From: Candidatus Tayloriibacteriota bacterium
GTDB taxonomy: Bacteria; Patescibacteriota; Minisyncoccia; Phycocordibacterales; PALSA-1337
Assembly: GCA_903893855.1 (NCBI GenBank)
Contig: CAITNV010000023.1
Span: 1-53,396 of the forward strand
DNA: 53,396 bases
Reading direction: 5' to 3'
In this document: positions 6,463 to 50,684 of the stretch, one piece after another
How the letters are laid out: every line of letters starts with the position of its first letter
Position numbering within the stretch: the first letter of the stretch is position 1
The notes under the pieces: model-generated
What the model was told of the DNA's origin: nothing
Database searches by the model: none
Seen by the model: the letters and a program-made list of their open reading frames with translations, nothing else
Program-made: the position numbers and the translations under genes

Positions 6463-6512
6463 TTTTCAAGGACCAAAAAAGCTATGATAGCATTTTATAA
6501 ACGCTATGTCAA
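6463..6512 (-). promoter_or_regulatory. sigma70 extended -10 promoter plus boxA-like motif for the ABC exporter
   Basis: TTGACA (6512-6507), 17 bp spacer, TGcTATCAT, then GGTCCTTGAAAA. Confidence 0.65.
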
Positions 6513-6551
6513 ATTATATGTTGTAATTTACGCAGCAATTCTGCAGACTAT

Positions 6552-8444
6552 TTAACTCAAAACCGCCTTGATTCGACGCACTCCCTGTGCAACTGCTTCT
6601 TCTTTAGCAATTTTGAAAGTCCACTTCCCTTCATCACCAGCAAGTTCACTCGTATTCTTAACGTGTGGTCCCCCACAGAATTCTTTAGAGTAAGCATTCG
6701 CGATATCAGAACCTACATAATAAATCGATACAGTATCGCCGTATTTTTCATTAAAGAAATGCCGTGCACCGGTCTTCTCTGCGAGAGCGAGCGGCAGACT
6801 GACCATAGTAACTGGTATATGAGCAGTAATCTTCGTATTCACAATCTCTTCAACACGCTTCTTCTGTTCATCGGTCATCTTCGCAGGATACGAGAAATCA
6901 AAACGTAATCGTTCAGCCGTAATATTCGAACCCTTCTGCTCCACACCATCTCCGAGTACATCATGAAGTGCCTGATGAAGTAAATGCGTAGCTGTATGAT
7001 AGCGAATGACCATAGGATCATTAGCGTCTGCAAGGCCACCCTTGAACTTCTGCTCTGCTCCAGCACGTGAGAGCGATTGATGCTTCTTAAACTCTTCATC
7101 AAAACCTGCTCGGTCAACTGTGAGCTTTTTGTCCGCAGCTAAAGCCACCGTAAGATCAATCGGCAAACCAAAAGAAGTAAATAGTGTAAAGGCATCAGCA
7201 CCACTAATATTCATGCCATTTTTAGCTAAACGATCGAATTCATGCACCGCACGTGAAAGTGTCCCTGAGAACTTTTCGATCTCTTCTTGAAGGGTCTGTG
7301 CAATTATTGAAGCTTTCGATGTAATGTCTGGGTATGCAGAAGCGTATGTGTGAGCGACTGCACCAACAATTTTCTTTACTGTCTCACTATCAATAGTGTG
7401 GCTTGTGGCATTAAAAACTGCTTTACGAATAAGACGTCGGAGGATGTAACCACGGCCAACGTTTGACGGCACAACTCCATCACCAATAAGGAAAATACTC
7501 GAACGCATATGATCAGCAATAATACGCTGCCTCACAACTTCACTCGAAAGTGTGCGTGTTATATCCATCACATTCTTGAACAGGTCAGTGTCATAGATAT
7601 TATCAACTCCTTGCAACGTCATTGTAAGTCGTTCAAGTCCAGCTCCAGTATCTACCGAAGGCTTAGGGAGTGTGCCGACGATCTTGCCATCTTTCTTCTC
7701 ATACTGCATGAATACATCATTCCATATCTCAAGTACATCTCGAACATCGTCAGCTTGAACATATTCATCGTGACTAATAGTTCGCCCTGCAAAACGATTC
7801 GCCACATCATAAAACATCTCTGAATCCGGACCGCAGGGACCATTGTCTCCCGCTTCCCACCAGTTATTTTTCGCTGGCATGTAGAAAATGCGACCATTTT
7901 CACCCTTGGTAGTATCGCCTCCAGCATCAATATTGTGACGCTTGAAAACATCTCTCCAAATAGCAGCTGCTTCATCGTCACGCGGAGCTACAGCATCACC
8001 TTCGAAAACCGTTACATATAGTCGTGTAGGATCAAGACCGAGACCTTGTTCACCAAGCACATCAGATGTAGAAGTAAGGAAATCAAAGCTCCATTCTATA
8101 GCCTCTTTTTTGAAATAATCTCCAAGCGACCAGTTACCAAGCATTTCAAAAAATGTAGCATGCGACTTATCCCCAATGTCATCGAAATCGACTGTCCTAA
8201 GGCATTTCTGAGAGTCTACAAGGCGTGTAATTAGCTTACCATCGGCAATGTAGGGTTCGCCAAGAAGATATGGGATAAGAGGCTGCATTCCTGCAGTATT
8301 AAAGAGCGTGGGGTTAGTAATACCCTTTTCGTCCGTAGTGATGAGCGAAGCAGATGAAATAATGGTATGTCCTCCGCGTTTAGGATGCGCGAAAAACTCC
8401 AAGAATCGCTTGCGTATATCTGCTGCGGTTAATTGTGTAGGCAT
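6552..8444 (-). CDS. alaS: alanyl-tRNA synthetase, short form lacking the C-Ala domain
   Basis: FNTAGMQP, FFEMLGNWS, DTGAGLER; editing motifs HTATH and CGGPH; ends at GVRRIKAV. Confidence 0.96.
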   Translation of the reverse strand: MPTQLTAADIRKRFLEFFAHPKRGGHTIISSASLITTDEKGITNPTLFNTAGMQPLIPYLLGEPYIADGKLITRLVDSQKCLRTVDFDDIGDKSHATFFEMLGNWSLGDYFKKEAIEWSFDFLTSTSDVLGEQGLGLDPTRLYVTVFEGDAVAPRDDEAAAIWRDVFKRHNIDAGGDTTKGENGRIFYMPAKNNWWEAGDNGPCGPDSEMFYDVANRFAGRTISHDEYVQADDVRDVLEIWNDVFMQYEKKDGKIVGTLPKPSVDTGAGLERLTMTLQGVDNIYDTDLFKNVMDITRTLSSEVVRQRIIADHMRSSIFLIGDGVVPSNVGRGYILRRLIRKAVFNATSHTIDSETVKKIVGAVAHTYASAYPDITSKASIIAQTLQEEIEKFSGTLSRAVHEFDRLAKNGMNISGADAFTLFTSFGLPIDLTVALAADKKLTVDRAGFDEEFKKHQSLSRAGAEQKFKGGLADANDPMVIRYHTATHLLHQALHDVLGDGVEQKGSNITAERLRFDFSYPAKMTDEQKKRVEEIVNTKITAHIPVTMVSLPLALAEKTGARHFFNEKYGDTVSIYYVGSDIANAYSKEFCGGPHVKNTSELAGDEGKWTFKIAKEEAVAQGVRRIKAVLS

Positions 8445-8509
8445 GGGAGAATACTAACAAATTTAGCTGAATATTTCAAAAAAATAGTGCAAAATATTTC
8501 GCGAAAACT

Positions 8510-14907: not shown

Positions 14908-15936
14908 CTACGCGTTACTGTATTTATTATCTTTATCTTTTTTGAAAAACTTGTGGTTCTGGAGATTGACGACAATAGTGTTTTCCTTTACATATCGTTC
15001 CTTCATAACCTTGTCGACGATCTCTTCTCGAGTAAGTGGACCGTTCTTGTCGAGGATCTTACGAATAACATCCTTAACAACTCCGCTCATATAACCCCAT
15101 TCTGCGAGAGCATATAGACCACGGCCTACGAGAACGAAACGAGGATCCTTAATAAGTTCATTATGTGTCGTTGCAACATGAGCCTTCTTCTTGAAGACCT
15201 TATTGATCTGATTAGCAACTTCTCGGAAATGGATTGGTGAACCATGCTTTCGAATAACAAGGAAAGCGTAATCACGCATACCCTTAGTCTTAATGTTAGG
15301 AGAATGTGATACACCCCATTCACCAATAGCATTCTTACCAACTCGCTTTGAAAGACCGAGCCATCGTCGAACGACTTCCTGATTCTTGTACTTCTCTGAA
15401 ACGCTTTCGAGATGAGTTAGGAATGTATTAACCATTTCTGATTCTGGAAGGAGGTCCTGATCTGAAAGACTTGCATAGAGCTTGTGAAGTGATCCTTCAA
15501 CCTGCGCTGCAAGCTCTTCATTAACATGCCATCGATGCTTGAAATCATCATCTTCTTTTCGCTTCTTAAATGTCTCACCAAGAACAAGGAGAAAGTTAAC
15601 TGCATTCTGTGTAGCTGCATCCTTTGAAACAGTATTAAGGAAATCTTCTTCAACAACGATACCTCCGAGGGAGTGGATGAGGTTTTCGAGTTCTTTAAAC
15701 GCTGCAGTCTCAGACTTGTAAGCCTCTGCTTTGCGAATATTGTTAATAGCGTAGTTTTCAATCTGACGTACTCGCTCACGAGTAATACCATACGTCTTAC
15801 CAATAGCATCAAGCGTCATCTTTGTCGTAGATTTACCAAGACCGTATCGCGACACAAGAACTGCTCGAGCACGATCTGGTAGTACTGCAAGAAGACGCTT
15901 AACTGACTGTTTTGGTTTAAATTGAATTGTTGCCAT
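14908..15936 (-). CDS. sigma70 region-4 HTH plus winged-helix (HARE-HTH/delta-like) protein
   Basis: TLDAIGKTYGITRERVRQIE at N-terminus; HNELIKDPRFVLVGRGLYALAEWG at C-terminus; start trimmed to 15936. Confidence 0.75.
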   Translation of the reverse strand: MATIQFKPKQSVKRLLAVLPDRARAVLVSRYGLGKSTTKMTLDAIGKTYGITRERVRQIENYAINNIRKAEAYKSETAAFKELENLIHSLGGIVVEEDFLNTVSKDAATQNAVNFLLVLGETFKKRKEDDDFKHRWHVNEELAAQVEGSLHKLYASLSDQDLLPESEMVNTFLTHLESVSEKYKNQEVVRRWLGLSKRVGKNAIGEWGVSHSPNIKTKGMRDYAFLVIRKHGSPIHFREVANQINKVFKKKAHVATTHNELIKDPRFVLVGRGLYALAEWGYMSGVVKDVIRKILDKNGPLTREEIVDKVMKERYVKENTIVVNLQNHKFFKKDKDNKYSNA

Positions 15937-16025
15937 TTGAATTAATTTGCTATTAATATGTGTAACTTTATATACATTACTTATATCATTTTGTTGTCTT
16001 GCCGTCAAACAACGTGTCACAAGTG

Positions 16026-18986
16026 CTAGCCGATGACGAAGTTGATAAGACGACCCTTGACATAAATGACTTTTTTGATGTTATTACTATATACTTTATC
16101 CTTAATTCCGTCAAGGTTTAGGGCCTTTTCTTTGACATATGCCTCTGCTTGAGCGTCAGTCATACCCGCGATATCCGTTGCGGGGAATTCGAAGCGAGTG
16201 CGAGTTTTACCGTTGATTTGCACAGGTATTGTGATATTTGCATCGGCAATCTTCGCAGGGTCAAAGACTGGCCAAGGCTCAGTATGAATGGACTTTTTAT
16301 TCCCCATACTTGCCCATAATTCATCAGCCACATGAGGCGCAAAAGGTGCAAGAATAGTAAGTATTATACCATAATGATCTTGCGAAATTGTAGGCATTTT
16401 CTCCATTTCATTAACGGCTATCATGAGTGCTGAGACTGCAGTGTTAAAGTGCATAGTCTCTATATCTTCAGAAACTTTCTTTATCGTGCGATGGACGAGT
16501 TTGTCGGCTTCGGCACTGGTAGTATTCCCCGCCACTTCTTGAAGCACCCCTGCTTTACTTTTTTTGGTGTCTAACGCGACCTTCTCTCGAAGCTTCCAAA
16601 CACGCTCGATGAATCTTCGAGTTCCCACGATACCATTCTCATCCCAAGCAATAGCCTGATCGAAAGGTCCCATGAACATTTCATACAAGCGAAGTGCATC
16701 TGCACCAACTGCTTCAACGATACCATCAGGGTTGACCACATTACCCTTCGACTTCGACATTTTCTCACCTCCCTTTGCAAGGATAAGGCCGTGTGAAGTG
16801 CGCTTTGCATACGGTTCATTGGTAGGCACAAGCTTTTGATCAAAGAGGAATTTATGCCAGAAGCGAGAATAGAGGAGGTGGAGCGTAGTGTGCTCCATGC
16901 CGCCATTGTACCAATCGACGGGAGTCCAGAATTTTAATTTATCTGCCGCTGCGAACTCTTTTTTATTCTTAGCATCAGTGTAACGAAGATAATACCACGA
17001 TGAACCAGCCCAATTCGGCATAGTGTCAGTCTCGCGCTTGGCTTTGCCTTTACACTTTGGACATTTAGTATTGACCCATGAGTCGATAGCAGCGAGGGGT
17101 GATTCACCTGTCTCAGTTGGTTTATAGTTCTTCACCTTCGGAAGCTTCACCGGCAAATCCTTCACCGGCACCGGTACGATACCGCACTTATCACAATGAA
17201 CAACTGGAATCGGCTCACCCCAATAACGCTGGCGAGAGAAGACCCAATCGCGAAGCTTGTAGTTCACCGCTCGTGTAGCAATGCCCTTATGTACGAGATG
17301 CTCAATAATGTCATTACGAACTTCACTCCACTCTCGGCCTTTGAATTCTTTTGGTTCAATGAGGATGCCGTTTTTTACCGCAGGCTTCGATCGTCCCACT
17401 ACCCTATCCCACACAAGCTTCATGCCTTCATGTGTAAGGAAAGCATCCACCTCAGCTGCCGTTAGCCATGACATACTTTCATGGACATTCTTCTCTTCTT
17501 CAGTAATTTCTCGACGATCGCCGTTTTTTAATTTAAATAAAGCAGGCGTAAAATGCGCAAAACGATTTTGTCCTTTCGCTACTTGGTAAAACTTAGCATG
17601 AATAGTGCCACCAAGGATCTTCTCAAAATGTGCGCTGGTATAGCCAGTCTCTTCAGCAATCTCACGAACGCCTGCAACACTCGGTTCTTCGCCCTTTTCA
17701 ATGCCACCAACGACGAAGCCTTGCCATTTCACACCCTTAAGGCTCACACAAAGATATTTATCCTCTGCCCAGTGCTTCACGATACATACCACTGCATTAC
17801 GCTCTACAATAGGCATGTCGTGACGGAAAGCATCGTCACCGCCCACAGTGACTGCGAGAGGCTCAGCGACCTCGTGGAGCGGTATAGAGTACTTCTTCGC
17901 GAATTTATAGTCTCGCTCATCATGAGCGCTACAATTGACCATACCGCTACCATAGTCGGCAAGAGCATACGATGCCACCCAGATCGGAAGATCTCGCCCA
18001 AGTCCTGCATAATTCTCTATATATCGGCCGGTAAATATGCCTTCGAGATCAGTATCGATGTCGAATTTATTCTCAAGCTTCTTTTGCTTGATCTTTGCGA
18101 CGAGCTCGAGGACGGGCTTCTCATATGAAGTTCCCTTTACGAGCTTCTCTACGAGCGGATGTTCAGGTGCGATAACGGTAAATGTCTCCGCACAATAAGT
18201 CTGAGGTACAGAATTATACATCTCAACGGTTATGCCGAGGTCTTTGATCTTACATTTAAAATTAACTCCTTCGCTTCGACCGATCCAATTGCGCTGTTGG
18301 GTCTTAATCTGCTCGAGATAGTCAACAGCGTCAAGGTCTTTGTGAAGCCGGTCTGCATACTTGGTAATAGCGAGCATCCACTGTTCTTTCTCTCGCTTCT
18401 CAACTGCGGTGCCGCAACGTTCGCATTTACCATCGATCACTTCTTCATTGGCAAGACCGATGAGGTCCTTCGGACACCAGTTAATGGTCATGCGCTTCTT
18501 ATACGCAAGGCCAGCATCGAGGAGACGAAGGAAAATCCACTGCGTCCATTTATAATACTTAGGGTCGGTAGTATTGATCTCTCGATCCCAGTCAAATGAG
18601 AAACCGAGCGACTTCAACTGTCGGCGGAAATTGTCAGTGTTGGTCTTCGTAACAATGGCCGGCTGAATTCCGGTCTTAATGGCGTAGTTCTCCGTAGGAA
18701 GACCGAAAGCATCCCAACCAATAGGATAAAGCACGTCATAACCTTCGCGACGACGCTTGTGAGATATGATGTCCATTGCAGTGTTGCTTCGAATATGGCC
18801 AACATGAAGACCGTCACCAGATGGATATGGGAATTCGATCAGGGCGTAGAATTTTTTCGCGGGCAGAGTGGCTTTCGCGGTTTTTTTCGCTGCCGTTTTC
18901 TTTGGGTCAAGCGCTTTAAAAAGCTTTTTCTTTTCCCACACCTTCTGCCATTTCTTCTCTATTTTTTTGTGATCGTATGTTTGCAT
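16026..18986 (-). CDS. leuS: leucyl-tRNA synthetase with inserted NUDIX domain
   Basis: FPYPSGDGLHVGH (HIGH), KMSKS, SRQRYWGEPIP; Nudix box GGIEKGEEPSVAGVREIAEETGY; start trimmed to 18986. Confidence 0.97.
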   Translation of the reverse strand: MQTYDHKKIEKKWQKVWEKKKLFKALDPKKTAAKKTAKATLPAKKFYALIEFPYPSGDGLHVGHIRSNTAMDIISHKRRREGYDVLYPIGWDAFGLPTENYAIKTGIQPAIVTKTNTDNFRRQLKSLGFSFDWDREINTTDPKYYKWTQWIFLRLLDAGLAYKKRMTINWCPKDLIGLANEEVIDGKCERCGTAVEKREKEQWMLAITKYADRLHKDLDAVDYLEQIKTQQRNWIGRSEGVNFKCKIKDLGITVEMYNSVPQTYCAETFTVIAPEHPLVEKLVKGTSYEKPVLELVAKIKQKKLENKFDIDTDLEGIFTGRYIENYAGLGRDLPIWVASYALADYGSGMVNCSAHDERDYKFAKKYSIPLHEVAEPLAVTVGGDDAFRHDMPIVERNAVVCIVKHWAEDKYLCVSLKGVKWQGFVVGGIEKGEEPSVAGVREIAEETGYTSAHFEKILGGTIHAKFYQVAKGQNRFAHFTPALFKLKNGDRREITEEEKNVHESMSWLTAAEVDAFLTHEGMKLVWDRVVGRSKPAVKNGILIEPKEFKGREWSEVRNDIIEHLVHKGIATRAVNYKLRDWVFSRQRYWGEPIPVVHCDKCGIVPVPVKDLPVKLPKVKNYKPTETGESPLAAIDSWVNTKCPKCKGKAKRETDTMPNWAGSSWYYLRYTDAKNKKEFAAADKLKFWTPVDWYNGGMEHTTLHLLYSRFWHKFLFDQKLVPTNEPYAKRTSHGLILAKGGEKMSKSKGNVVNPDGIVEAVGADALRLYEMFMGPFDQAIAWDENGIVGTRRFIERVWKLREKVALDTKKSKAGVLQEVAGNTTSAEADKLVHRTIKKVSEDIETMHFNTAVSALMIAVNEMEKMPTISQDHYGIILTILAPFAPHVADELWASMGNKKSIHTEPWPVFDPAKIADANITIPVQINGKTRTRFEFPATDIAGMTDAQAEAYVKEKALNLDGIKDKVYSNNIKKVIYVKGRLINFVIG

Positions 18987-19027
18987 ATATGTATATGTCC
19001 TTTGACTATATAATAAAAAAAGACCGC

Positions 19028-19177
19028 TCACAAGGGAGCGGAATTTTGACTTTTGACGGGTTCATTGTGTGCCACAGGAAATGCTTCGTAAAAAGCCTTT
19101 CCGGTTCCATAAAGCGCCAACACAACAATTATTAGAATGGCAAACCAAGACGTTAAAAACGTGACGATTATTCTCAT
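19028..19177 (-). CDS. small membrane protein (49 aa), not in ORF track
   Basis: MRIIVTFLTSWFAILIIVVLALYGTGKAFYEAFPVAHNEPVKSQNSAPL; own hairpin leader; terminator ccgctc/gagcgg overlaps the stop. Confidence 0.6.
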   Translation of the reverse strand: MRIIVTFLTSWFAILIIVVLALYGTGKAFYEAFPVAHNEPVKSQNSAPL

Positions 19178-19273
19178 TTTTTTACAAAGTTGACTGCAAT
19201 TTCTGAGAACGACTCTAAAGCAACTTTGTTTACAATACCATGTTTATAAAGAATTAGCTAGGATTTTATTTCA

Positions 19274-19669
19274 TTAAAATACCGCCGCAAGCGCCTTTTT
19301 CAAAACCGGAACAATCCCCTTTTGATTAAAACCAAGCTCCAGTGCCTCAACTTCCTCAATACTCATCCATTTCATGGCCAAGCCTTCATGAAGAATCGGC
19401 TCTTGGTTTGGATTTATTCTGCAGACATAGACTTTATTGGCCCTGCCATTGTCGTAATCCATGAGGAAACTGCACTGGTCGAGCGTAAGATCAATACTGT
19501 ATTCTTCTGTAACTTCACGAATAAGGGTATCGGTATAGTCCTCACCATCGTCGCTTCCTCCACCCGGTATGCACCAACTAAAAGGGTAAGTTTTACTATG
19601 AGCATCACGCTGCTGCATTAGGACTTTATTATCACGCACGAGAGCAAATATGACGCCGATTTTTGACAT
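19274..19669 (-). CDS. NUDIX hydrolase (MutT-like)
   Basis: WCIPGGGSDDGEDYTDTLIREVTEEY; leaderless-type start (TGcTATACT, 6 nt, ATG). Confidence 0.88.
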   Translation of the reverse strand: MSKIGVIFALVRDNKVLMQQRDAHSKTYPFSWCIPGGGSDDGEDYTDTLIREVTEEYSIDLTLDQCSFLMDYDNGRANKVYVCRINPNQEPILHEGLAMKWMSIEEVEALELGFNQKGIVPVLKKALAAVF

Positions 19670-19767
19670 GTGATTAGTATAGCAAATATGCTGTAAATTA
19701 TTAAAATAAAAAAAAGCACACATATCATTGACTTGACAATTTTATATATCATGCTAAGGTACAAATA

Positions 19768-23401: not shown

Positions 23402-24172
23402 ATGGACAAAATCTCAATTATCATTCCGGTGCGCAATGAAGAGGACTATATCGATGGCGCCTTGGGACAATTCTTTATTGACCCAATTGCAGGAGAAATT
23501 ATCGTCACTGACGATGGTAGTACCGACCGCACGCGCGAGATCGCCGAGAGTTATGGAGTAATATTCCTCGATCACACCGTCGAGCACCACCTCGCGAAGC
23601 GCTTTCCACACCTTGAGCGATCAACCATCGGAGCAAATCGTAACTTCGGTGCGCGTAATGCCACTGGCGAATTCCTGCTCTTTATAGACGCTGAGACAAG
23701 AATAGAAAATTGCAAGGATTTTATCACAAGATCTTTAAAACATTTTCATAATGATCCGGAGCTCGTGGCCCTTACAGGTGCCCTTTGGGTTATACCCGAG
23801 CTTGAGACTTGGGGTGATCGTTTGGTCTATACAGTATTTAACTGGGTGCATCGCATTAAAAATAACTGGCTCGGCGCCGGTGAAGCTTCAGGTAAATTCC
23901 AGATGATACGCCGCACTGCATTCGACAAAGTCGGTGGCTATCGCGAAGATCTCGTTACTCGTGAAGATGGCGATATGTTCGCAAGACTTTCTCGTATCGG
24001 TACTACCCTCTGTGATCCGAAGCTTGTCGTCCTCTACAGTGGACGCAGGGCTCACGCTATCGGCTGGCCGCGTCTGCTTTTGACATGGCTGTTGGAATCA
24101 TTGAGTTTTGTATTTCGAGGACGCGCGATTAGTACCAATTGGGATCGGATTGATACAAAAGCCAAAAAATAA
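23402..24172 (+). CDS. glycosyltransferase family 2
   Basis: SIIIPVRNEE, DDGSTDRT, RNFGA, FIDAE, ED motif, SGRR. Confidence 0.92.
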   Translation: MDKISIIIPVRNEEDYIDGALGQFFIDPIAGEIIVTDDGSTDRTREIAESYGVIFLDHTVEHHLAKRFPHLERSTIGANRNFGARNATGEFLLFIDAETRIENCKDFITRSLKHFHNDPELVALTGALWVIPELETWGDRLVYTVFNWVHRIKNNWLGAGEASGKFQMIRRTAFDKVGGYREDLVTREDGDMFARLSRIGTTLCDPKLVVLYSGRRAHAIGWPRLLLTWLLESLSFVFRGRAISTNWDRIDTKAKK

Positions 24173-24206
24173 CCGAACAACGATTCACCATCAAATATAA
24201 ATAAAA

Positions 24207-24225
24207 GACCCGCTTTTGAAGCGGG
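24207..24225. terminator. terminator between convergent genes
   Basis: cccgctt-ttg-aagcggg hairpin with an A tract on the left. Confidence 0.65.
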
Positions 24226-24252
24226 TTTGTTGTGTGCGATTCAGAAGGTCAG

Positions 24253-24870: not shown

Positions 24871-24976
24871 AATGATCTCTCTTTCTGTTGACCGAATTTT
24901 TTGTTAAATTGCTTATTTCCAATTGTATTTTCAGCTCACAACTGGTACAATACATATATAACACGCTTTTAAATAT

Positions 24977-26043: not shown

Positions 26044-26583
26044 CTAGTACGTAGCTCGTCGGAAAGGGATGAAACAAATCAGCACGAGACTGATCAGAAG
26101 CATCAGTAGTGTCCAGCCACCATCAGGCGCTGAGGCGGGAACGGGCGGAGGTGCCCAATGTGCTCCGAATGTTGCATCGAAATAACCGCCGCCAATCCCT
26201 CGAATGGAATCGATCCCCACGATGGCGTGGTTACCAACCCCATCAAACCACGATAAGTGGAAGAACGTAAGACCTGAGATTTGATCCCACTCGAGGGGGC
26301 CAAATGTGGAAGCCGACGACGGATCGTAGATGATTTTGCCGATATTCGGTGTGATGACATAACCACCGAGAACGTCATTGACGTTGCCGTTCACGTTCGA
26401 TGCCTCGGCAAGAAAAAGCTTGCCAGAATAGCCCGGATCTGCACCGTAAATGTCGAACTCGAAGCTTGACCCATTCACGGTGCTGACCTGAAACAAATTG
26501 CCGATGAGGAGAATAACCGCCAAGCATAGGGCCGAAAAGCCCTTATAGCTGGCGCCGACGTAAACTGAAATATGATTTTTCAT
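26044..26583 (-). CDS. secreted protein with VPDSG-CTERM/PEP-CTERM-like sorting signal
   Basis: Signal-peptide-like N-terminus; C-terminal APDGGWTLLMLLISLVLICFIPFRR; start moved to ATG 26583 because the upstream GTG lies in the hairpin leader. Confidence 0.7.
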   Translation of the reverse strand: MKNHISVYVGASYKGFSALCLAVILLIGNLFQVSTVNGSSFEFDIYGADPGYSGKLFLAEASNVNGNVNDVLGGYVITPNIGKIIYDPSSASTFGPLEWDQISGLTFFHLSWFDGVGNHAIVGIDSIRGIGGGYFDATFGAHWAPPPVPASAPDGGWTLLMLLISLVLICFIPFRRATY

Positions 26584-26783
26584 AAGCTGAGGAGGGCTCT
26601 GAAACATCACGCACACCGGCCACGGCGCACGTACTGTCACAATTTAAAAGAACTATATTGCAACGTTATCATGTACACGTCAATTGTCAAGCTTTTTTGC
26701 ACGAAAATTTTATTATTTCTTTATTTGCCAATATTATGGATATGATATGATTACCCTATTAAAATAATTCGAAGTATTTTCAA

Positions 26784-28751: not shown

Positions 28752-29243
28752 TCAGATTTTTCGCGCCGCTTTCAATTCTGCGATTCGGTTAGTGTACCCA
28801 CGCAGTCCGATGTGGGAATCCGAACTCCCTGTCGAACGCACGAATTCGATGGCGACACCGTCGTGGAAATACACCGTGAACACTTCGACGGGGTGATTTT
28901 CCTCCTTGCGGTACAGCCCGATACTGACTTGCGCCGTAGCATGTTGGCACATTCTGTCTTCACCAACCCAGATGCGCTGTTCAATCCGGTATGGTTTCAC
29001 ATACCGCACCACATTAACAAGCCCTTCAGCCGCTCCGTGGCTATGGTATTCAGGCTCATCACCGAAGTCGAGAATTGCCCTCAAACGTTCGGCAACCTCA
29101 CTGACCTTAACCTCGGGGTTAATGTCAACGTACTCGATTTCAAGCCCCAGCATGGTGCCGAGGCGATTCATCGTGTGGTGGTTTTTGGCACCGAGTGCCG
29201 CTACATTTGCCGGTGTGATAAACCGGCCAATTTTATGGACCAT
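28752..29243 (-). CDS. ORFan paralog family member 1
   Basis: Shares motifs with 41983..42417 and 44427..44867 (P..V.kLG; P..I[ED]Q.I; A.L.I.[LF][YF]; [VI]YF....[PA]..IE). Confidence 0.75.
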   Translation of the reverse strand: MVHKIGRFITPANVAALGAKNHHTMNRLGTMLGLEIEYVDINPEVKVSEVAERLRAILDFGDEPEYHSHGAAEGLVNVVRYVKPYRIEQRIWVGEDRMCQHATAQVSIGLYRKEENHPVEVFTVYFHDGVAIEFVRSTGSSDSHIGLRGYTNRIAELKAARKI

Positions 29244-29422
29244 AAACGATTCTCCGATTGGAATGGCTCATTCTGGGGCCATATTTGCTCGTTGTCCGTG
29301 AGCGACGATCTGACCGTTCATCGGTACAGACACAAGAAAGCTAAGCTAGCTTGCTCATTTCTGTACCGATGGTTTGTCAAAGTTCTTTTAGTACATTATA
29401 ACATATATGGCTATATTGTCAA
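29244..29422 (-). promoter_or_regulatory. promoter, boxA-like motif and structured 5' leader
   Basis: TTGACA-16-TGtTATAAT; GAACTTTGACAA; perfect 12-bp stem catcggtacaga/tctgtaccgatg (29319-29371). Confidence 0.7.
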
Positions 29423-29527: not shown

Positions 29528-29935
29528 CTATCCACTTATTCGTACTGCCTCAATGATATGGCAAATAAAGGTCAGAGCTAATCCCCAAAATACAGGAAGA
29601 AGTAATAATTGAGGTGGGGCTTCAGCAATTAAAACAACTGGAGTGAATACGAAACCCGTAACTAGAGCAATGATGTACGTGCGGGCAGTGCGATTGGCTT
29701 GACTGATCGATAGTATCGTCTGAGCCCAACCAGTGACAAATGCGACCAAAACGGCATCAATGCCACAGAGCATGACTGCGATTCCGAGTTTGCAGAGTAG
29801 TGGTAAATTACTCGGAAATGATCCCGTATGGCTAGCCTGATACCTATCGGTATGCAACTGGACGTTACCAACTGCACATAAGGTCAGACCGAGGCAGAAA
29901 ATAATCCCGCCGAATACACTTAATCGTTTTCTCAT
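29528..29935 (-). CDS. hypothetical 4-TM membrane protein
   Basis: Hydrophobic segments; leader GAAAGGACCTTGAAAATG; own terminator at ~29475-29497. Confidence 0.65.
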   Translation of the reverse strand: MRKRLSVFGGIIFCLGLTLCAVGNVQLHTDRYQASHTGSFPSNLPLLCKLGIAVMLCGIDAVLVAFVTGWAQTILSISQANRTARTYIIALVTGFVFTPVVLIAEAPPQLLLLPVFWGLALTFICHIIEAVRISG

Positions 29936-30124
29936 TTTCAAGGTCCTTTCGTTGCGGGAAGTGTAGCATATTGAGCAAGTTTTTTACAACGCGATTATTC
30001 GCGTTTTTTTATGTAAAAGAAGACCGATATCCCGCAGTGTAGCAGTGATTTTTGGTTGCAAAGATAGCGCTTTAGCATTAAACTAAATTAGGTTAACGTT
30101 ACGACTGTAGTACGAAACAATGTT

Positions 30125-31519: not shown

Positions 31520-31746
31520 ACATGACCTTATGCTGTATTATTTGTTATACGTTGCGAAATGCAAAGTCCACCTTGGATGATTTCATTATTTTATGAAGAT
31601 GTCAACAGCAAAATAATTGACATCTACTGTAAGCTATGGTAAATATGATACAGTAAAACACGATTCCTTGACCCAAGGTTAGCACAACTGAGTCCGTATA
31701 CATGGTGTGTATAGACTCTGATTGCCAACCTTCAACACAGGAGTTT

Positions 31747-32658: not shown

Positions 32659-32682
32659 TCTACCAAAACAGCTAAGGGCCCG
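32659..32682 (-). repeat. degenerate copy of the tRNA-Ala 5' end
   Basis: tctacca-aaac-agctaagggcccg versus tctacca-gatg-agctaagggcccg at 32582-32605 (20/24 identical). Confidence 0.75.
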
Positions 32683-32727
32683 TATGTAACGGGTATATTC
32701 AAATTTCAACAACGATAGTATTTTACA

Positions 32728-33771
32728 TTATTTTCCTTCGATTGCAAGTGTCACGATATGATCGAAGAAATCGGGCAGACTTGCGCCCACTGCAGCGAGG
32801 GCTTTGGGGACAATGGACGTCTCGGTAAGGCCGGGTAGCGTATTGACCTCAAGCGCATAAATCCCCCGTCGTGGAGCCACGATAAAGTCAGATCGGGAGT
32901 AGTGTCGAAGCCCAAGCACTCGGTGAATGTCACGGGCCAGACGCTCGAGTTCAGCCTTGATCTCGCTACTAAAATGACTTGGCACTATTTCCTCCGCAGC
33001 GACTTTTTTACCACGATGATCAACAACGTCGTCGCGTGAATATTTCGATTCATAGTCAAAAAAGTCCCGATTGTGGCGAATCTCAACGACAGGCAAGGCA
33101 TAAAGCTCTTCTCCACGGAAATTATCAATGATACCCACAGTCGCTTCAGTGCCCGCGATGAATTCCTCAACCATTACTGGAGCGACGGTACCATCGCGAC
33201 GCACGCTATATTGAAACGCTTTCAAAATATGCGGGGCAAGATCACCATGCGCACGGGCAATTGATATACCAACCGAAGAACCGCTCTCCGACGGCTTCAC
33301 TACGACCGGTAATGAAAAAGTTCTAAAGATAGTATCAATTTTCTCTAAAAGACTTCCATCAGCGAGGCTTGCGGAGTCAATTAAAATATGCCTCGGCGTC
33401 TTTATTCCATAACGCACGAAACTATCTTTCGTCAAGACTTTATTCATTGCCACAGCAGAAGCAAAAGCCTTACTACCCGTAAACGGAACACCATGGGCTT
33501 CCAAAAGCATTTGCACCTTACCATCCTCACCATAGGCTCCATGAAGCGCATTCACCACCACATCCACCTGAGCAAGAGCACGCTCCACCGCAATGGGCAC
33601 ACCTGAGTGATACCACACTCCATCCTTCGAGAGGAGGATATCGTGCACGTGGTATTTGTCGCGAAATTTATCATGCGAAAGACTCGCGAGCACGGTCTTG
33701 CCGGTTGCGAGTGAGACATCGTATTCATCTGAAGGGCCTCCGCGAAGGACACCGACTCTGATAATTGCCAT
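32728..33771 (-). CDS. ddl: D-alanine--D-alanine ligase
   Basis: GGPSDEYDVSL, ALHGAYGEDG, GSSVG, LEVNTLPG. Confidence 0.96.
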   Translation of the reverse strand: MAIIRVGVLRGGPSDEYDVSLATGKTVLASLSHDKFRDKYHVHDILLSKDGVWYHSGVPIAVERALAQVDVVVNALHGAYGEDGKVQMLLEAHGVPFTGSKAFASAVAMNKVLTKDSFVRYGIKTPRHILIDSASLADGSLLEKIDTIFRTFSLPVVVKPSESGSSVGISIARAHGDLAPHILKAFQYSVRRDGTVAPVMVEEFIAGTEATVGIIDNFRGEELYALPVVEIRHNRDFFDYESKYSRDDVVDHRGKKVAAEEIVPSHFSSEIKAELERLARDIHRVLGLRHYSRSDFIVAPRRGIYALEVNTLPGLTETSIVPKALAAVGASLPDFFDHIVTLAIEGK

Positions 33772-41824: not shown

Positions 41825-41982
41825 ATGATTACAGTCAATATTACTATACTATATATCGTGAAAACTGATGCTATTGACTTATTTATTATACATGTTATAC
41901 ATAACGTAGCAATTTGACAGCTCCATGGAGAATTAACTCATGGGGTGATTGAACGAAATGATCTTAAATAATATCTAGAAAT

Positions 41983-42417
41983 ATGAATGAAATGACATAC
42001 AGTATCAGCATAAGCCCAGATGCCGTAAGTAAACTTGGTATTCAAACACTCAGGTCAATTAGTTGCACCCGCAAGGGTTTCATTGTGGTGGTCGAAAGCA
42101 TCATTGCAGCCGGTAGCGAAGCTACTACCACTGCCAATGGAAACCTTAAAGCAGTCTTCCACAAGCCAGCAAAAGACTGTAGTATCTTGGTGGATCGATT
42201 GCTGCGAATACTTCGAGGTCCGAAAATTTTTATGATCGAACAGATCATCGAACCTTCGGTACGGAGTGACATCGGCAGCACAGCGAGACTGATAATCAAT
42301 TTGTATCGGGGCGAAGTTCGGCCGGATGATGTGATCATCGTCTATTTCTACAACGACAAACCGATCTGTATCGAACATTCATGGGCCACCGGCGAATGGA
42401 CCTACTCGTTACGTTGA
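41983..42417 (+). CDS. ORFan paralog family member 2
   Basis: Own TTGACT promoter (41874), GCAATTTGACAG, hairpin, terminator at 42425-42455; motifs shared with members 1 and 3. Confidence 0.78.
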   Translation: MNEMTYSISISPDAVSKLGIQTLRSISCTRKGFIVVVESIIAAGSEATTTANGNLKAVFHKPAKDCSILVDRLLRILRGPKIFMIEQIIEPSVRSDIGSTARLIINLYRGEVRPDDVIIVYFYNDKPICIEHSWATGEWTYSLR

Positions 42418-42566
42418 GCTTCAAGCATTCTGATCGAAGGGTCGGAATGCTTTTTCTTTTAGTCTTATAAAAATTTTTTAATAAAGTTGACACTATTAAA
42501 GTTGTATGCTAACGTATTTTTAGGTAGATTTTTAAATAACAAAACCAAGAAAGGCTATAGAAAAAA

Positions 42567-43264: not shown

Positions 43265-44352
43265 CCCGCCCGACGGCCTCAATTAGAATGAATCATTTTC
43301 TTTTGTTTCTCCGAATTTCTCGGAGATTTTTTTGTTTACGACAAAGGGTTAAGGCTTCAGAAGGGGTTTGAAAGTCGAGGCATTCCATGAATCGATCGTT
43401 AAGCTTCTTTTCCATCTTCTTCCAGAATGTAGGAGGATATTTTGAAATATCACTTCCTTTGGGAACGTCATCACGTATCTCTCCATTTACATTTTCAATT
43501 GATCCTTTCTCCCATGAATGGTAGGGGTGGCAAAAATATATCCTGATACTGAGTTCTTTCTCGAGCTCTTTGTGCCGTACGAAGAGGATATCGTTGTCAG
43601 TGGTTCCTGTCTTCCACTCAGAATACCTTTCTTTGATCTTCCACATCGCTTTGTGGATGGCAGGTACGGTCACGTCATATATCGGTTCGAAAAATGATAC
43701 ACGTAACTTACGATCAGTAGCTGTGAGTACGATCCCTTTTCCTCCTTTCCCTGATACGATGAAATCGAACTCTGCATGCCCGACTCTCATCCTTTCGTTG
43801 ATATACTTAGGTCGTTTGTCGATGAAGGTTCTACCATCAAGGGTACCTTTGTTACCCCTCTTCTTTCCTCGCTTCTTTTCCTTTTTCAATTTCGCCTCGA
43901 TTTTCCTCCCATACGGAGACTTTATGTACCGATATATGCTCTCTTTTGAGATGTAGGGGATATTCTTTTCTCTTTTGTATCTGAGCCTCCCTGAAATACC
44001 TTCAGGTGACTGTCCTGCAAGGAGTGATATCTCAACAAATTCCTTAAGTCTTTTGTCCTCAACAATCTTCATTCCTTGGTATTTTGCTTCTTGACGACTC
44101 ACGTATGCCTTGTGCTTTGCCTTCAGGGGATCATAGATACCATTTACTTTGTTTCTCTCTACTTCATTCCATATTGCTGATGATGCTCGTTGGAGAGCGT
44201 CTCCCACATCTTCATATGAGTATCCTTTCTTTCTCAAGAGATATATTTCATTACGTTCACTGTCAGAAAACCGCGAGAAGTTTCTGGTTCTTAAGTTTTT
44301 TTCATAGGTACAGAATACAGGAGATTCATTCTAATTCAAAAGAGAATTCGGG
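43265..44352 (-). mobile_element. IS30-family insertion sequence (element A)
   Basis: 30-bp imperfect terminal IRs CCCG-N12-AATTAGAATGAATC; TT(T) on both flanks; DDE transposase inside. Confidence 0.88.
43293..44305 (-). CDS. IS30 transposase, frameshifted in an A7 run just after the start
   Basis: SPEGISGRL, EFDFIV, TTDND, YFCHPYHSWEKG; ATG 44305 is out of frame by 1 nt. Confidence 0.85.
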
Positions 44353-49028: not shown

Positions 49029-49584
49029 GCCCCGCTGCGACTTTGATCTCGAGAGATCGTTGTCGCTGCGGGGCTGGGTGAAGTGCGCCTTATTTTGATG
49101 TCAGTCTAATCCATTCGTCGGTGCTGTGGGGTAGCACCTGTACGAGCGAATTTAGACCTAAACCGACTCGCCGCATGCCATAAGAGGGCAGCCAATAAAC
49201 GGCGGCGTAGTCGGAGAAACATCATCCGATGATAGGGCGGTCAATCACCACGTCTGTGGATGTCGGCTAATATGCTGACGGGACTGCAAGCAGCCCGTGC
49301 TGATAGCTAGCCGTCACTGGGCCCGCCGCTCAGAACAATTTTTGGGCGGGGCCGGTGGACATCCGGGATCGGCGGCCGGGGTCGGCGCCGTGAATCGAGG
49401 CCGGGGAGACATTATATTTTTGGAAGGTGCCGAGACAGGGACGGGACGGGTCTTTCATTTGGAGGCCTTTTTGTTGGGTGGAGCACACTGGCTTGTATAC
49501 TTCACCTTGTTATTTTGCCGTTTGATCGGGTGAATACACTATAACGCTGGTCCCTCAGTAGGGGGCGTACCGGATCAAGATTGA
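49029..49584 (-). ncRNA. candidate large structured RNA or leader with two possible sORFs (49330..49458, 49106..49225)
   Basis: GC-rich chain of hairpins; 46-nt terminal hairpin at 49029-49074; putative promoter lies beyond IS30 element B. Confidence 0.35.
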
Positions 49585-50636
49585 TCTCCCCACCTTTAAA
49601 TACGAAGGGTTGGTATCATTGAATATATGGCTAACAAAAAGAAGCACCTGTCGGATCAGGAGAGATTTTGTATCGAAAAAATGCTTGGAGTTGGAGATAG
49701 TTTTGGAAAGGTTGCGCACACTCTCGGGAGAGGTCTGTCCACCATAAGCGAAGAGGTAAACAGTAATGGAGGAAGGAACGCATATACTGCAGAGAAAGCA
49801 ATACGGAGAGCATACTGGAAGCAGTATCGGAAGAAGCGAAACTGTAACAAAGTAGCTCTCGATGGACACCTTACAAAGTTTGTAGAGAAGAAACTAGAAA
49901 AAGGATGGTCACCCGAGAGTATATCATCTCGGCTTGAAGTACAATCAGGACTTGCATATGCAAGTGCCAAAAGCATCCGCAAGTTCATCAGCAGACGACC
50001 GGGACTTGAGAGATTCCTCTTCTGGGAAAGAAATGATGTGAAAAGCGGTCCCAAAAGAGGAAACAAAATATTTCTCACTGATCCAGAACGTAAATTCATA
50101 GAACTACGCCCTCTCAGGGCTCTCTATGAGTATGGGCATTGGGAAATGGACTTCATTGTATCGAAACACAATGCATGGGTGCTTCTTGTCTGTGTTGAGA
50201 AGTACAGCAAAATACTCAAGCTTGCGCTCATTCCGAACAGAACCACTGACGTGGTACATGAGACCCTTAGGGAGCTTCTTGGGGGATATACCATCAAAAG
50301 CATTACCACTGACAATGATATCGCTTTCAGACAGTGGAGAGAGCTTGAGAGTATACTCTGTACTCATATCTACTTCTGTCACCCCTACCATTCATGGGAA
50401 AAGGGACTGGTGGAGAATACCAACAGATGGATCCGTGAGTTCATACCAAAAAAGACCAACTTGGGGTTGATCTCTTCTGGATTCATTACTGATATTGAAA
50501 ATTACTTTAATCACAAACCGAGGGAGTGTCTCGGAGGATATACCGCATACGAAGTGATGATGAAAAAAGAGTGTGGTAGAATGGTCGAATCATTAGAAAT
50601 TAATTTACCTAGTCTTCGTATTATGGGGTAGGGAGA
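49585..50636 (+). mobile_element. IS30-family insertion sequence (element B)
   Basis: Imperfect 30-bp IRs (22/30 match): tctccccacctttaaatacgaagggttggt versus reverse complement of 50607-50636; exact ends +/-3 bp. Confidence 0.85.
49627..50631 (+). CDS. IS30 transposase (intact)
   Basis: N-terminal HTH, WSPESIS, HWEMDF, ITTDND, YFCHPYHSWEKGLVENTN. Confidence 0.93.
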   Translation: MANKKKHLSDQERFCIEKMLGVGDSFGKVAHTLGRGLSTISEEVNSNGGRNAYTAEKAIRRAYWKQYRKKRNCNKVALDGHLTKFVEKKLEKGWSPESISSRLEVQSGLAYASAKSIRKFISRRPGLERFLFWERNDVKSGPKRGNKIFLTDPERKFIELRPLRALYEYGHWEMDFIVSKHNAWVLLVCVEKYSKILKLALIPNRTTDVVHETLRELLGGYTIKSITTDNDIAFRQWRELESILCTHIYFCHPYHSWEKGLVENTNRWIREFIPKKTNLGLISSGFITDIENYFNHKPRECLGGYTAYEVMMKKECGRMVESLEINLPSLRIMG

Positions 50637-50655
50637 GGAACCTTTCTTGCAAGAA

Positions 50656-50684
50656 TTGATAACATATTTTGACAATAAAGTCAA
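50656..50684 (-). promoter_or_regulatory. sigma70-like promoter now firing into IS30 element B
   Basis: TTGACT-17-TGtTATCAA followed by GCAAGAAAGGTTCCTCT at the IS end. Confidence 0.55.

What the first reader, a model, noticed from the sequence alone, without database searches (positions are those of the whole stretch)
6463..50684. Recurrent accessory-gene cassette: promoter > boxA-like motif > long hairpin > SD > ORFan > terminator
Seen: unrelated accessory genes each carry a near-consensus TTGAC[AT]-16/17-TGnTAnnnT promoter, followed about 10-25 nt later by a related motif. Instances: GGTCCTTGAAAA (6474-, ABC exporter), GCAATTTAACAA (24912-), GTTCTTTTAAAT (26653-), GAACTTTGACAA (29385-), GGACCTTGAAAA (29946-), TTCCTTGACCC (31664+), GCAATTTGACAG (41909+), GCACTTT|TAAT (43258+). 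Several continue into a long stem-loop (26608-26633, 29319-29371, 31675-31732, 41921-41945; 19184-19229 has the hairpin without a clear motif), an AAAGG/AGGAG SD and their own terminator. Core genes here lack this layout. Known: the motif resembles the NusB/NusE boxA of rrn operons and lambda nut sites (GYTCTTTAACA; TCTTTGAAAA in Firmicutes). Inference: a dedicated, possibly Nus-dependent, expression module for a dispersed pool of rapidly evolving single-gene cassettes. I do not know of this being described for CPR.
Basis: partly seen in the sequence, partly recalled or inferred. Interest (0 to 1): 0.82.

Follow-up and report, generated by a model that had tools for sequence, protein, structure and literature searches.

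The report
BoxA-like sites on mRNA leaders
In this tiny lake bacterium, a minority of very strong promoters are followed at once by the same short RNA signal that its relatives use ahead of their ribosomal RNA genes, which suggests that the ribosomal-RNA transcription helpers also act on a set of mostly unknown genes.

Summary
Partly confirmed. The promoters are real: 43 of 47 strict TTGAC-N-TGnTAnnnT matches in the genome are intergenic. The motif holds for 3 of the 8 cited sites (6474, 26653, 29385), is weak at 3 and absent at 2. It matches the boxA found de novo in the rrn leaders of all 15 relatives examined, which is of the Bacillus subtilis type. A matrix built only from those leaders scores at least 10 bits in the first 70 nt after 15 of 136 strong promoters. 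The antisense control gives 1, the upstream control 0, and column permutation 0.8±0.9. Across 201 genomes of the order, promoter plus motif gives 128 matches against 32 antisense and 45 at 60-71 nt. Four of five hairpins are real, but hairpins do not go with boxA. Strong promoters favour genes without a Pfam family (p=0.002). BoxA adds nothing significant to that (p=0.19). NusA, NusB, NusG and S10 are present. Rho and SuhB were not found. NusB is fused to a Nudix-like domain throughout the order. Best reading: genuine NusB:S10 loading sites on mRNA leaders, not a fixed five-part cassette.

The parts
6484..6512 (-). Strong promoter, TTGACA-17-TGCTATCAT
   Evidence: 11 of 12 hexamer matches plus TG. 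Promoter matrix score 27.1 bits.
6459..6476 (-). boxA-like 18-mer TTGGTCCTTGAAAATTTT; core 13 nt after the -10
   Evidence: 11.6 bits with the rrn-leader matrix.
4629..6422 (-). ABC exporter gene served by this leader
   Evidence: Pfam ABC_tran and ABC_membrane. The best homologue in 24 relatives is only 36% identical.
26663..26690 (-). Strong promoter, TTGACA-16-TGATAACGT
   Evidence: Promoter matrix score 20.2 bits.
26638..26655 (-). boxA-like 18-mer TAGTTCTTTTAAATTGTG; core 13 nt after the -10
   Evidence: 11.6 bits.
26600..26640 (-). Leader hairpin directly after the boxA
   Evidence: -20 kcal/mol, z -2.83.
26044..26394 (-). Gene without a Pfam family. The start is uncertain; the longest frame reaches 26640.
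   Evidence: No Pfam family. Start choice.
29395..29422 (-). Consensus promoter, TTGACA-16-TGTTATAAT
   Evidence: 12 of 12 hexamer matches plus TG. Promoter matrix score 20.6 bits.
29370..29387 (-). boxA-like 18-mer AAGAACTTTGACAAACCA; core 13 nt after the -10
   Evidence: 11.9 bits.
29310..29380 (-). Long leader hairpin (stem 29319-29371)
   Evidence: -34.6 kcal/mol, z -7.67, and 0 of 200 shuffles fold as well.
28752..29243 (-). First of three consecutive genes without a Pfam family (28752-29243, 28235-28732, 27877-28221)
   Evidence: No Pfam family. The next terminator-like site is at 27700-27682.
29931..29948 (-). Weak boxA-like string AAGGACCTTGAAAATGAG, lying between the Shine-Dalgarno sequence AAAGGA and the likely ATG at 29935
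   Evidence: 7.8 bits; promoter only 5.1 bits. Sequence read.
41874..41901 (+). Promoter, TTGACT-16-TGTTATACA
   Evidence: 13.2 bits.
41907..41924 (+). Weak boxA-like string TAGCAATTTGACAGCTCC; core 11 nt after the -10
   Evidence: 5.4 bits.
41915..41950 (+). Leader hairpin
   Evidence: z -2.86.
41983..42417 (+). Gene without a Pfam family, with its own terminator at 42423-42452
   Evidence: No Pfam family. 13-pair terminator-like site.
31617..31645 (+). Promoter, TTGACA-17-TGGTAAATA. The cited motif at 31664 is not boxA-like.
   Evidence: Promoter 11.8 bits; boxA matrix -4.6 bits.
31670..31740 (+). Leader hairpin before the gene 31702-32094 (no Pfam family); terminator at 32115-32132
   Evidence: z -3.62. 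Terminator-like site. No Pfam family.
24901..24912 (-). GCAATTTAACAA, an E. coli-like TTTAACAA variant, 46 nt after the promoter whose -10 ends at 24955
   Evidence: 1.2 bits with the matrix. The 11-mer CAATTTAACAA is also in the leader of the orthologous gene of congener G001.

Best explanation
About one in nine strong sigma-70-type promoters of this genome, and one in four of the strongest, is followed in the first 10-50 nt of the predicted transcript by a genuine boxA. BoxA is the short single-stranded RNA signal that loads NusB:S10, and with it NusG and NusA, onto RNA polymerase at ribosomal RNA operons.

SHOWN. The motif is the same as the rrn-leader boxA of this lineage. It is sense-specific and promoter-proximal. 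It occurs independently at many unrelated genes. The Nus genes are present. Rho was not found.

INFERRED. NusB:S10 binds these mRNA leaders and modifies the elongating polymerase. Because there is no Rho to counteract, the likely effects are faster and less pause-prone elongation through structured leaders and poorly translated genes. Where the boxA abuts the start codon, a suhB-like block of ribosome access is also possible. Either effect would tie expression of these mostly unknown genes to the pool of free NusB:S10.

The promoter, boxA, hairpin and terminator are separate, independently assorting parts. They are not one fixed cassette.
For: (1) A Gibbs sampler run on the rrn leaders of 15 relatives, without any seed motif, recovers CTTTGA[AC]A in 15 of 15. 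In 12 of 15 the motif follows a hairpin. This is the layout and consensus (AUGAUCUUUGAAA) that PMC13753749 reports for B. subtilis, with direct NusB binding (passages read).

(2) A matrix built only from those 15 leaders scores at least 10 bits in the 70 nt after 15 of 136 G000 promoters. Controls give 1 antisense, 0 upstream, 1.2±1.0 in Markov simulations and 0.80±0.86 (maximum 5 in 1000) after column permutation. Outside the window's contig the count is 12 of 122.

(3) YTTGA peaks 10-19 nt after the -10. That bin holds 19 of 59 sense hits in 0-100 nt, against 2 of 38 antisense.

(4) Across 201 genomes of the order, promoter plus YTTGAMA at 9-20 nt gives 128 matches in 79 genomes. The antisense version gives 32 matches in 30 genomes. 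The same motif at 60-71 nt gives 45 matches in 36 genomes. G000 has the most, with 6.

(5) None of the 19 cores doubles as the -35 of a second promoter. Only 2 of 171 pairs of promoter-plus-leader regions share anything, in each case a single 13-mer, so these are independent occurrences.

(6) Two paralogous secreted proteins, 51% identical, both keep a boxA at 17-19 nt in otherwise different leaders. The leaders of an orthologous gene pair in G000 and G001 share CAATTTAACAA.

(7) NusB, NusG, NusA and S10 are encoded.
Against: - No transcript data exist, so start sites and even transcription are inferred. No RNA run holds this organism.
- The motif is short. There are 238 hits of at least 10 bits genome-wide, most of them in coding sequence, and there is no excess when anchored on start codons (21 sense against 26 antisense).
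- The replicate in congener G001 is weak. One contig of 346 kb gives 5 of 47 sense, 2 antisense and 0 upstream.
- G000's own rrn leader is not assembled, so the comparison rests on relatives.
- The rrn boxA lies 29-96 nt from the -10 and behind a hairpin. Eight of the 19 mRNA sites lie 11-19 nt from it with no hairpin before them.
- A second boxA in the 16S-23S spacer, usual in other bacteria, was seen in only 2 of 11 relatives.
- Rho and SuhB were not found, so the best-known function of boxA complexes cannot apply here.
Confidence: 0.55

Rival explanations
1. A dedicated five-part expression cassette (promoter, boxA, long hairpin, Shine-Dalgarno sequence, unknown gene, terminator) is specific to rapidly evolving single-gene accessory cassettes and absent from core genes.
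For: Two window loci show promoter, boxA and hairpin in that order (26600-26690 and 29310-29422), and a third does so weakly (41874-41950). Strong promoters are enriched before genes without a Pfam family: 14 of 49 have a family, against 30 of 50 for all window frames, p=0.002. Terminator-like sites are enriched in 26-46 kb. The interval between the glycosyltransferase gene and tRNA-Ala is about 6.8 kb here and about 6.5 kb in G001, with no protein similarity between them.
Against: BoxA follows only 15 of 136 strong promoters. Leaders with boxA are not more structured than those without (mean z -0.75 against -1.23). BoxA-linked genes are not significantly poorer in Pfam families than other promoter-linked genes (3 of 17 against 10 of 26, p=0.19). 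The ABC exporter, Band_7 and HTH genes carry boxA. The 28752 and 4629 loci head multi-gene runs. The promoter-plus-leader regions are not copies of a common unit.
Confidence: 0.15
2. The motif acts in DNA rather than RNA. It would be an operator for an unknown repressor or activator that sits over the start site of a regulon of strong promoters.
For: Eight of 19 sites cluster 11-19 nt after the -10, where repressors commonly bind. BoxA-bearing promoters score higher than the others (median 21.6 against 16.6 bits, p=0.009), as might be expected for promoters that need repression.
Against: The motif is not palindromic or repeated, and its spacing to the -10 is loose (11-48 nt). The same motif sits 29-96 nt downstream in rrn leaders, behind a hairpin, which fits an RNA element. 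It equals a sequence shown to bind NusB in B. subtilis. Its strict sense orientation (15 against 1) is not required of a DNA site.
Confidence: 0.12
3. The motif is a 5'-UTR element unrelated to Nus factors, for example a translation or stability signal. Its likeness to boxA would be coincidental.
For: In several leaders the string abuts the start codon. Distances from core to start of 1, 8, 22 and 22 nt are seen among 17. AAAGGACCTTGAAA(A)TG recurs before unrelated genes in G000 (29946) and in G027. Only 5 of 17 boxA genes have a clear Shine-Dalgarno sequence.
Against: There is no enrichment relative to start codons (21 sense against 26 antisense). The Shine-Dalgarno frequency does not differ from controls (5 of 17 against 37 of 91, p=0.43). 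Core-to-start distances range from 1 to 255 nt. Identity with the rrn-leader element is unexplained under this reading.
Confidence: 0.1
4. Chance. An AT-rich, T-then-A string turns up in AT-rich leaders, and the reader picked look-alikes by eye.
For: Five of the 8 cited instances score below 8 bits. The matrix hits coding sequence often (172 of 238). The general promoter scan finds no excess of loose promoter-like sites (35 found against 39.7±7.3).
Against: 15 are observed, against 0.80±0.86 after column permutation (maximum 5 in 1000) and 1.2±1.0 in Markov simulations. The result holds outside the window contig (12 of 122). Order-wide the counts are 128 against 32 and 45.
Confidence: 0.05

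Closest known systems
rrn-leader boxA of the B. subtilis type (AUGAUCUUUGAAA after a small 5' hairpin; binds NusB). PMC13753749, passages read.
   Same: The core sequence is the same (WWCTTTGA[AC]A). The position in the nascent RNA, soon after a strong promoter, is the same. The NusB, S10, NusG and NusA genes are present. Relatives' rrn leaders have exactly this hairpin-then-boxA layout (12 of 15).
   Different: Here the element is on leaders of protein-coding genes, mostly without a Pfam family. It is often at the very 5' end with no preceding hairpin. Binding is untested.
boxA in mRNA and CRISPR leaders of gamma-proteobacteria (E. coli suhB, a C. koseri parE-like gene). PMC5725501, passages read; CRISPR operons are mentioned in PMC13753749.
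   Same: BoxA lies on non-ribosomal transcripts within about 50 nt of the gene start. A boxA next to the ribosome-binding site could block translation, as at suhB.
   Different: That work found 0-7 putative sites per genome and expected 'only a few regulatory targets' in any species. Here about 15 sites, against about 1 expected by chance, occur in 0.94 Mb. The suhB mechanism ends in Rho termination, and Rho was not found here. No Nus-factor gene was seen among the targets. The supplementary data of that paper were not available to me.
Lambda nut sites (boxA followed by the boxB hairpin, read by the N protein). Arrangement recalled, and stated in the abstract of PMC2724277 in the listing.
   Same: The order boxA then hairpin is seen in three window leaders.
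   Different: The hairpins are long (up to 24 pairs), unrelated to each other and not conserved in the genus. They are not associated with boxA genome-wide. No N-like factor is known here.
Leader-encoded recruitment of specialised NusG paralogues to accessory operons (ops/RfaH, LoaP). Recalled, not tested.
   Same: It works alike in principle: a short element in the 5' leader of accessory or horizontally acquired genes recruits an elongation factor.
   Different: The element and the factor differ. Those systems act largely against Rho or at specific terminators. No search for an RfaH or LoaP paralogue was made here.

Membership tests
boxA (NusB:S10-loading RNA element) | Sequence matches the lineage's own rrn-leader boxA | tested here: met
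Matrix built from 15 relatives' leaders. 15 of 136 promoters have a hit of at least 10 bits. G000's own rrn leader is not assembled.
boxA (NusB:S10-loading RNA element) | Lies on the transcribed strand downstream of a promoter, so that it appears in the nascent RNA | tested here: met
   Sense 15, antisense 1, upstream 0. Order-wide 128 against 32. Start sites are predicted, not mapped.
boxA (NusB:S10-loading RNA element) | Cognate factors NusB, S10, NusG and NusA are encoded | tested here: met
   The NusB domain matches solved NusB structures. It carries an extra C-terminal Nudix-like domain.
boxA (NusB:S10-loading RNA element) | NusB:S10 binds the RNA | not testable with these tools
   Needs a gel-shift, calorimetry or NMR assay with the lineage's proteins.
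boxA (NusB:S10-loading RNA element) | The element is single-stranded in the leader | tested here: inconclusive
   In minimum-energy folds of 19 leaders the element is mostly unpaired, but it is partly paired in some, for example the outer stem at 29310-29387.
E. coli-type rrn antitermination complex | Counteracts Rho; includes SuhB | tested here: not met
   Rho_RNA_bind was not found in G000. The rho model passed its cut-off in 0 of 31 genomes. Inositol_P (SuhB) was not found. G000's completeness is given as 100%.
Lambda nut-type site | boxA followed by a functional hairpin as a unit | tested here: not met
   Present at 3 window leaders. Leaders with boxA are not more structured than controls (mean z -0.75 against -1.23). 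The hairpins are not conserved in the genus.
Sigma-70 promoter with extended -10 | TTGAC, a 16-18 nt spacer, TGnTAnnnT, concentrated in intergenic DNA | tested here: met
   43 of 47 strict matches are intergenic. At 20 bits or more, 50 hits are intergenic and 2 are coding.
   The parts assort independently. Only 2-3 window loci have promoter, boxA and hairpin together. Genes of known families also carry boxA or the strong promoter.

The most novel reading that the evidence does not exclude
In this order NusB is always fused to a Nudix-like domain, the fold of the RNA 5'-pyrophosphohydrolases and decapping enzymes. A boxA placed at the extreme 5' end of a transcript would bring that domain next to the RNA's 5' triphosphate or cap. 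BoxA would then work here not, or not only, as an antitermination signal. It would be a 5'-end tag that lets NusB-Nudix mark rRNA leaders and a set of strongly transcribed accessory mRNAs for 5'-end processing or decay, in a lineage without Rho. The gene next to nusB-nudix is RNase III.
Probability: 0.12. Interest if true: 0.85.

Novelty: new variant of a known kind. Interest (0 to 1): 0.6.

Why it matters
BoxA and the Nus factors are textbook machinery for ribosomal RNA synthesis. Only a handful of mRNA targets are known, all in bacteria that have Rho.

If the sites here are real, a reduced genome of the Patescibacteria group uses the same signal on roughly fifteen protein-coding leaders. (The group assignment rests on the name of a 78%-identical NusB homologue.) Most of these genes have unknown function. 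The lineage appears to have no Rho and no SuhB, and its NusB carries an extra enzyme-like domain.

That would widen what Nus complexes are for. It would give a handle on how these organisms, which have few recognisable regulators, control their large pool of lineage-specific genes. It would also offer a concrete, testable RNA-protein pair.

Tried and rejected
- RNA evidence. No RNA holder was listed for window 24000-33000; only lake and pond DNA runs were found.
- Rfam. Only tRNA-Ala was found in the window at gathering thresholds.
- Tandem-promoter reading. 0 of 19 cores serve as a -35.
- Start-codon anchoring. No excess, 21 sense against 26 antisense.
- Association of hairpins with boxA. None.
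- Shine-Dalgarno strength and leader length do not differ between boxA and control genes (p=0.43 and p=0.91).
- Leader conservation at the ABC exporter. No close orthologue exists (best 36% identity), and upstream regions of the distant homologues were uninformative.
- A second boxA in the 16S-23S spacer was seen in 2 of 11 relatives.
- tRNA leaders. 2 of 33 have a hit of at least 8 bits within 150 nt.
- boxA upstream of Nus-factor genes. None was noticed at nusB, or at the tuf-rpsJ promoter on contig C54. This was not searched systematically.
- A literature search for the motif string returned only primers and an unrelated promoter table.
- The first run of the leader-fold script timed out. 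It was repeated with mononucleotide shuffles, so its z-scores are rougher than those.
- Pfam test. Genes under 90 aa were dropped, and only 26 of 67 eligible control genes were sampled.
- Gene calls are my own crude codon-score calls, so the labels 'intergenic' and 'gene start' are approximate.

Full report
WHAT THE WINDOW IS

The window is contig C23 of a 935,889-base, 62-contig assembly with 43% G+C. Pfam scans of 50 frames show ordinary core genes: rpsD/K/M, infA, alaS, leuS, uvrABC, ddl, zwf, transketolase and others. They are interspersed with 20 frames that have no family over the curated cut-off. These cluster at 24.2-32.1 kb, 38.7-39.6 kb and 42.0-45.5 kb. DNA runs holding the stretch are lake-water metagenomes.

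THE PROMOTERS ARE REAL

The strict pattern TTGAC-N15/16-TGnTAnnnT occurs 47 times in the genome. Of these, 43 fall in the 17.7% that my crude gene calls leave intergenic. A matrix trained on them finds 136 non-redundant intergenic sites of at least 12 bits. Site 31664 just misses at 11.8 bits, and 29946 scores 5.1.

THE MOTIF, CHECKED SITE BY SITE

- Three sites (6474, 26653, 29385) score 11.6-11.9 bits with the matrix described below. Each has its core exactly 13 nt after the -10.
- Site 29946 scores 7.8 bits but is simply the spacer between an AAAGGA Shine-Dalgarno sequence and the ATG.
- Site 41909 scores 5.4 bits.
- Site 24912 scores 1.2 bits. It is a TTTAACAA variant.
- Sites 31664 and 43258 do not match.

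WHAT THE MOTIF IS

G000 has no 16S gene and only the 3' part of the 23S gene at a contig edge. Its own rrn leader therefore cannot be read. I took the leaders of 15 relatives of the same genus, family or order.

A Gibbs sampler run without any seed finds three conserved blocks in them:
- the -35 region;
- a GTGCAAGT block;
- CTTTGA[AC]A, present in 15 of 15 leaders.

In 12 of 15 leaders the CTTTGA[AC]A block follows a hairpin within 14 nt. It lies 29-96 nt after the -10. This is the arrangement and nearly the consensus (AUGAUCUUUGAAA) that a 2026 mBio paper reports for B. subtilis rrn operons, with NMR evidence that NusB binds it (PMC13753749, passages). Two of the relatives read GTGATCTTTGAAAT. 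The same-genus relative reads GAACATTGAAAAT, and GAAC is also the commonest 5' flank of the G000 mRNA sites.

IS IT MORE THAN CHANCE?

An 18-column matrix built only from those 15 rrn leaders was scanned over G000. By itself it is unspecific. It gives 238 hits of at least 10 bits, 172 of them coding. There is no excess upstream of start codons, with 21 sense and 26 antisense hits over 885 genes.

Anchored on promoters the picture changes.
- 15 of 136 promoters have a hit of at least 10 bits in the next 70 nt on the sense strand.
- Controls give 1 antisense and 0 in the 70 nt upstream of the promoter.
- First-order Markov simulations give 1.2±1.0.
- Permuting each column among promoters gives 0.80±0.86, with a maximum of 5 in 1000. 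This control keeps any position-specific composition.
- Leaving out the window's contig, 12 of 122 promoters remain.
- Among promoters of at least 20 bits the share is 12 of 50.
- The bare core YTTGA peaks 10-19 nt after the -10, with 19 of 59 sense hits against 2 of 38 antisense.
- Best-hit positions fall in two groups, 11-19 nt (8 sites) and 25-48 nt (11 sites).

None of the 19 cores of at least 8 bits is the -35 of a further predicted promoter. The 19 regions are not copies of one another: 2 of 171 pairs share a 13-mer and nothing more.

BEYOND THIS GENOME

In one 346-kb contig of the same-genus genome G001, 5 of 47 promoters have a sense hit, against 2 antisense and 0 upstream. The proportion is similar but the result is weak on its own.

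Across 201 genomes sampled from the order:
- the composite pattern (promoter, 9-20 nt, YTTGAMA) matches 128 times in 79 genomes;
- with the motif reverse-complemented it matches 32 times in 30 genomes;
- with the motif in sense but 60-71 nt away it matches 45 times in 36 genomes.

G000 has the most matches, 6. Many matched strings extend to GATCTTTGAAA or GTTCTTTGAAA. Kin are not independent, so these are descriptive ratios and not a statistical test.

THE HAIRPINS

Four of the five cited stem-loops fold far better than shuffles, with z of -7.7, -3.6, -2.9 and -2.8. The one at 19180-19235 does not. But leaders with boxA are no more structured than leaders without: mean z is -0.75 for 19 against -1.23 for 80 (mononucleotide shuffles). 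The hairpins are unrelated to each other and were not found in the genus by DNA search. A few mRNA leaders on other contigs do copy the rrn order of hairpin then boxA.

WHICH GENES

Behind boxA-bearing promoters, 3 of 17 genes of at least 90 aa have a Pfam family over its cut-off. These are the ABC exporter, a Band_7 protein and an HTH protein. Behind a random 26 of 67 eligible strong promoters without boxA, 10 of 26 have a family. These include rpsS, tsf, gatC, a BipA-like GTPase and an MFS transporter. Fisher's test gives p=0.19.

Taken together, promoter-linked genes have a family in 14 of 49 cases. For all window frames the figure is 30 of 50, p=0.002. The two sets overlap slightly. So near-consensus promoters do mark genes of unknown family, but boxA adds no significant further bias at this sample size.

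BoxA-linked genes are diverse. Seven of 17 have a hydrophobic N-terminus, against 26 of 91 controls. Two are paralogues that both keep the motif.

The interval between the glycosyltransferase gene and tRNA-Ala/ddl is of similar length in G001 but shares no protein at E<1e-5. The flanking core genes are 56-66% identical. At this divergence I cannot tell replacement from fast divergence. One unknown gene just outside that interval (24253-24870) does have a 43%-identical orthologue. The two leaders share a conserved promoter and the 11-mer CAATTTAACAA.

THE FACTORS

NusA, NusG and S10 are present. Rho's RNA-binding domain is not found in G000, whose completeness is given as 100%. The rho model passes its cut-off in 0 of 31 genomes; the weak hits look like ATP synthase subunits by their length and score, which is my inference. 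SuhB's family is not found.

NusB is unusual. It is a 319-residue protein with a complete NusB domain that matches solved NusB structures, plus a C-terminal Nudix-like domain. RNase III is encoded next to it. The fusion is full-length in 58 of 60 other genomes sampled from 60 families, at 51-73% identity. The remaining two are cut at contig ends. It has at least 8000 database homologues. In an alignment of 13, the EE of the Nudix box is nearly invariant and several members have a canonical box. G000's copy has AK in place of RE and a one-residue deletion. A search for NusB, Nudix and fusion found no paper on such a protein (listing only).

HOW IT MOST LIKELY WORKS

Shown:
- a sense-strand, promoter-proximal element identical to the lineage's rrn boxA at about 15 unrelated leaders;
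- the binding factors are encoded.

Inferred:
- NusB:S10 loads on these nascent mRNAs and, through NusG and NusA, changes the elongating polymerase.

Without Rho, the plausible effects are suppression of pausing and faster, more processive transcription of structured or poorly translated RNAs. Where the element touches the start codon, a block of ribosome access is possible, as shown for E. coli suhB (PMC5725501, passages). I put 0.55 on the boxA/Nus reading.

The boldest reading that remains open is that the Nudix-like domain acts on the 5' end of boxA-tagged RNAs (0.12).

COMPARISON WITH WHAT IS KNOWN

BoxA on non-ribosomal transcripts is known: suhB, a parE-like gene and CRISPR operons. That work reported 0-7 putative sites per gamma-proteobacterial genome and expected few targets per species.

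The case here differs in four ways:
- density, with about 15 sites in 0.94 Mb;
- target class, mostly genes of unknown family behind the strongest promoters;
- position, often at the very 5' end;
- context, with no Rho, no SuhB and NusB fused to a Nudix-like domain.

My searches for boxA with NusB and Saccharibacteria found nothing on boxA in CPR genomes, and 'Patescibacteria' does not occur in PMC13753749.

I rate it a new variant of a known kind, of moderate to high interest. All of it is computational.

Noticed in passing
G000 contig C8:24428-25384 (L001:949-1908, minus strand), outside the window: NusB is fused to a C-terminal Nudix-like domain (319 aa) and is followed by RNase III. The fusion is full-length in 58 of 60 other genomes sampled from 60 families of the order. 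Some members have a canonical Nudix box; G000's own is degenerate. No paper on it was found.
   Followed up: partly
window 16026-19031 (-) and 19274-19723 (-): The leucyl-tRNA synthetase carries a NUDIX domain inserted at residues 432-529. A separate 149-aa NUDIX protein lies just upstream. Together with NusB-Nudix, this is a striking recurrence of the fold.
   Followed up: no
window 14908-16020 (-): A 370-aa protein has sigma-70 region 4 at its N-terminus (residues 43-97) and a HARE-HTH domain at 248-308. This is an odd architecture for a transcription factor.
   Followed up: no
window 25720-32728, against L068:6844-13428 (G001): The interval between the glycosyltransferase gene and tRNA-Ala/ddl is about 6.8 kb here and about 6.5 kb in the congener, with no protein similarity at E<1e-5. 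The flanking genes are 56-66% identical.
   Followed up: partly
window about 19732-19760 (+): A strong promoter (21.1 bits) points into the gap between the NUDIX gene and ychF, which are both on the other strand. Only a 35-codon frame lies behind it. It may drive a small RNA or an antisense transcript.
   Followed up: no
window 49627-50631 (+) and 43293-44237 (-): An IS30-type transposase (HTH_38 plus rve), and a second frame with only a sub-threshold HTH_38 match, possibly a decayed relative.
   Followed up: no
rrn leaders of relatives, L002-L017: A GTGCAAGT block is conserved downstream of boxA in nearly all 15 leaders and may be a boxC-like or processing signal. Several 16S genes are 1.9-2.2 kb long or are matched in pieces, which suggests insertions.
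   Followed up: no
window 29931-29948 (-) and L089 (G027): The string AAAGGACCTTGAAA(A)TG, which is Shine-Dalgarno sequence, spacer and start codon, recurs before unrelated genes in two distantly related genomes.
   Followed up: no
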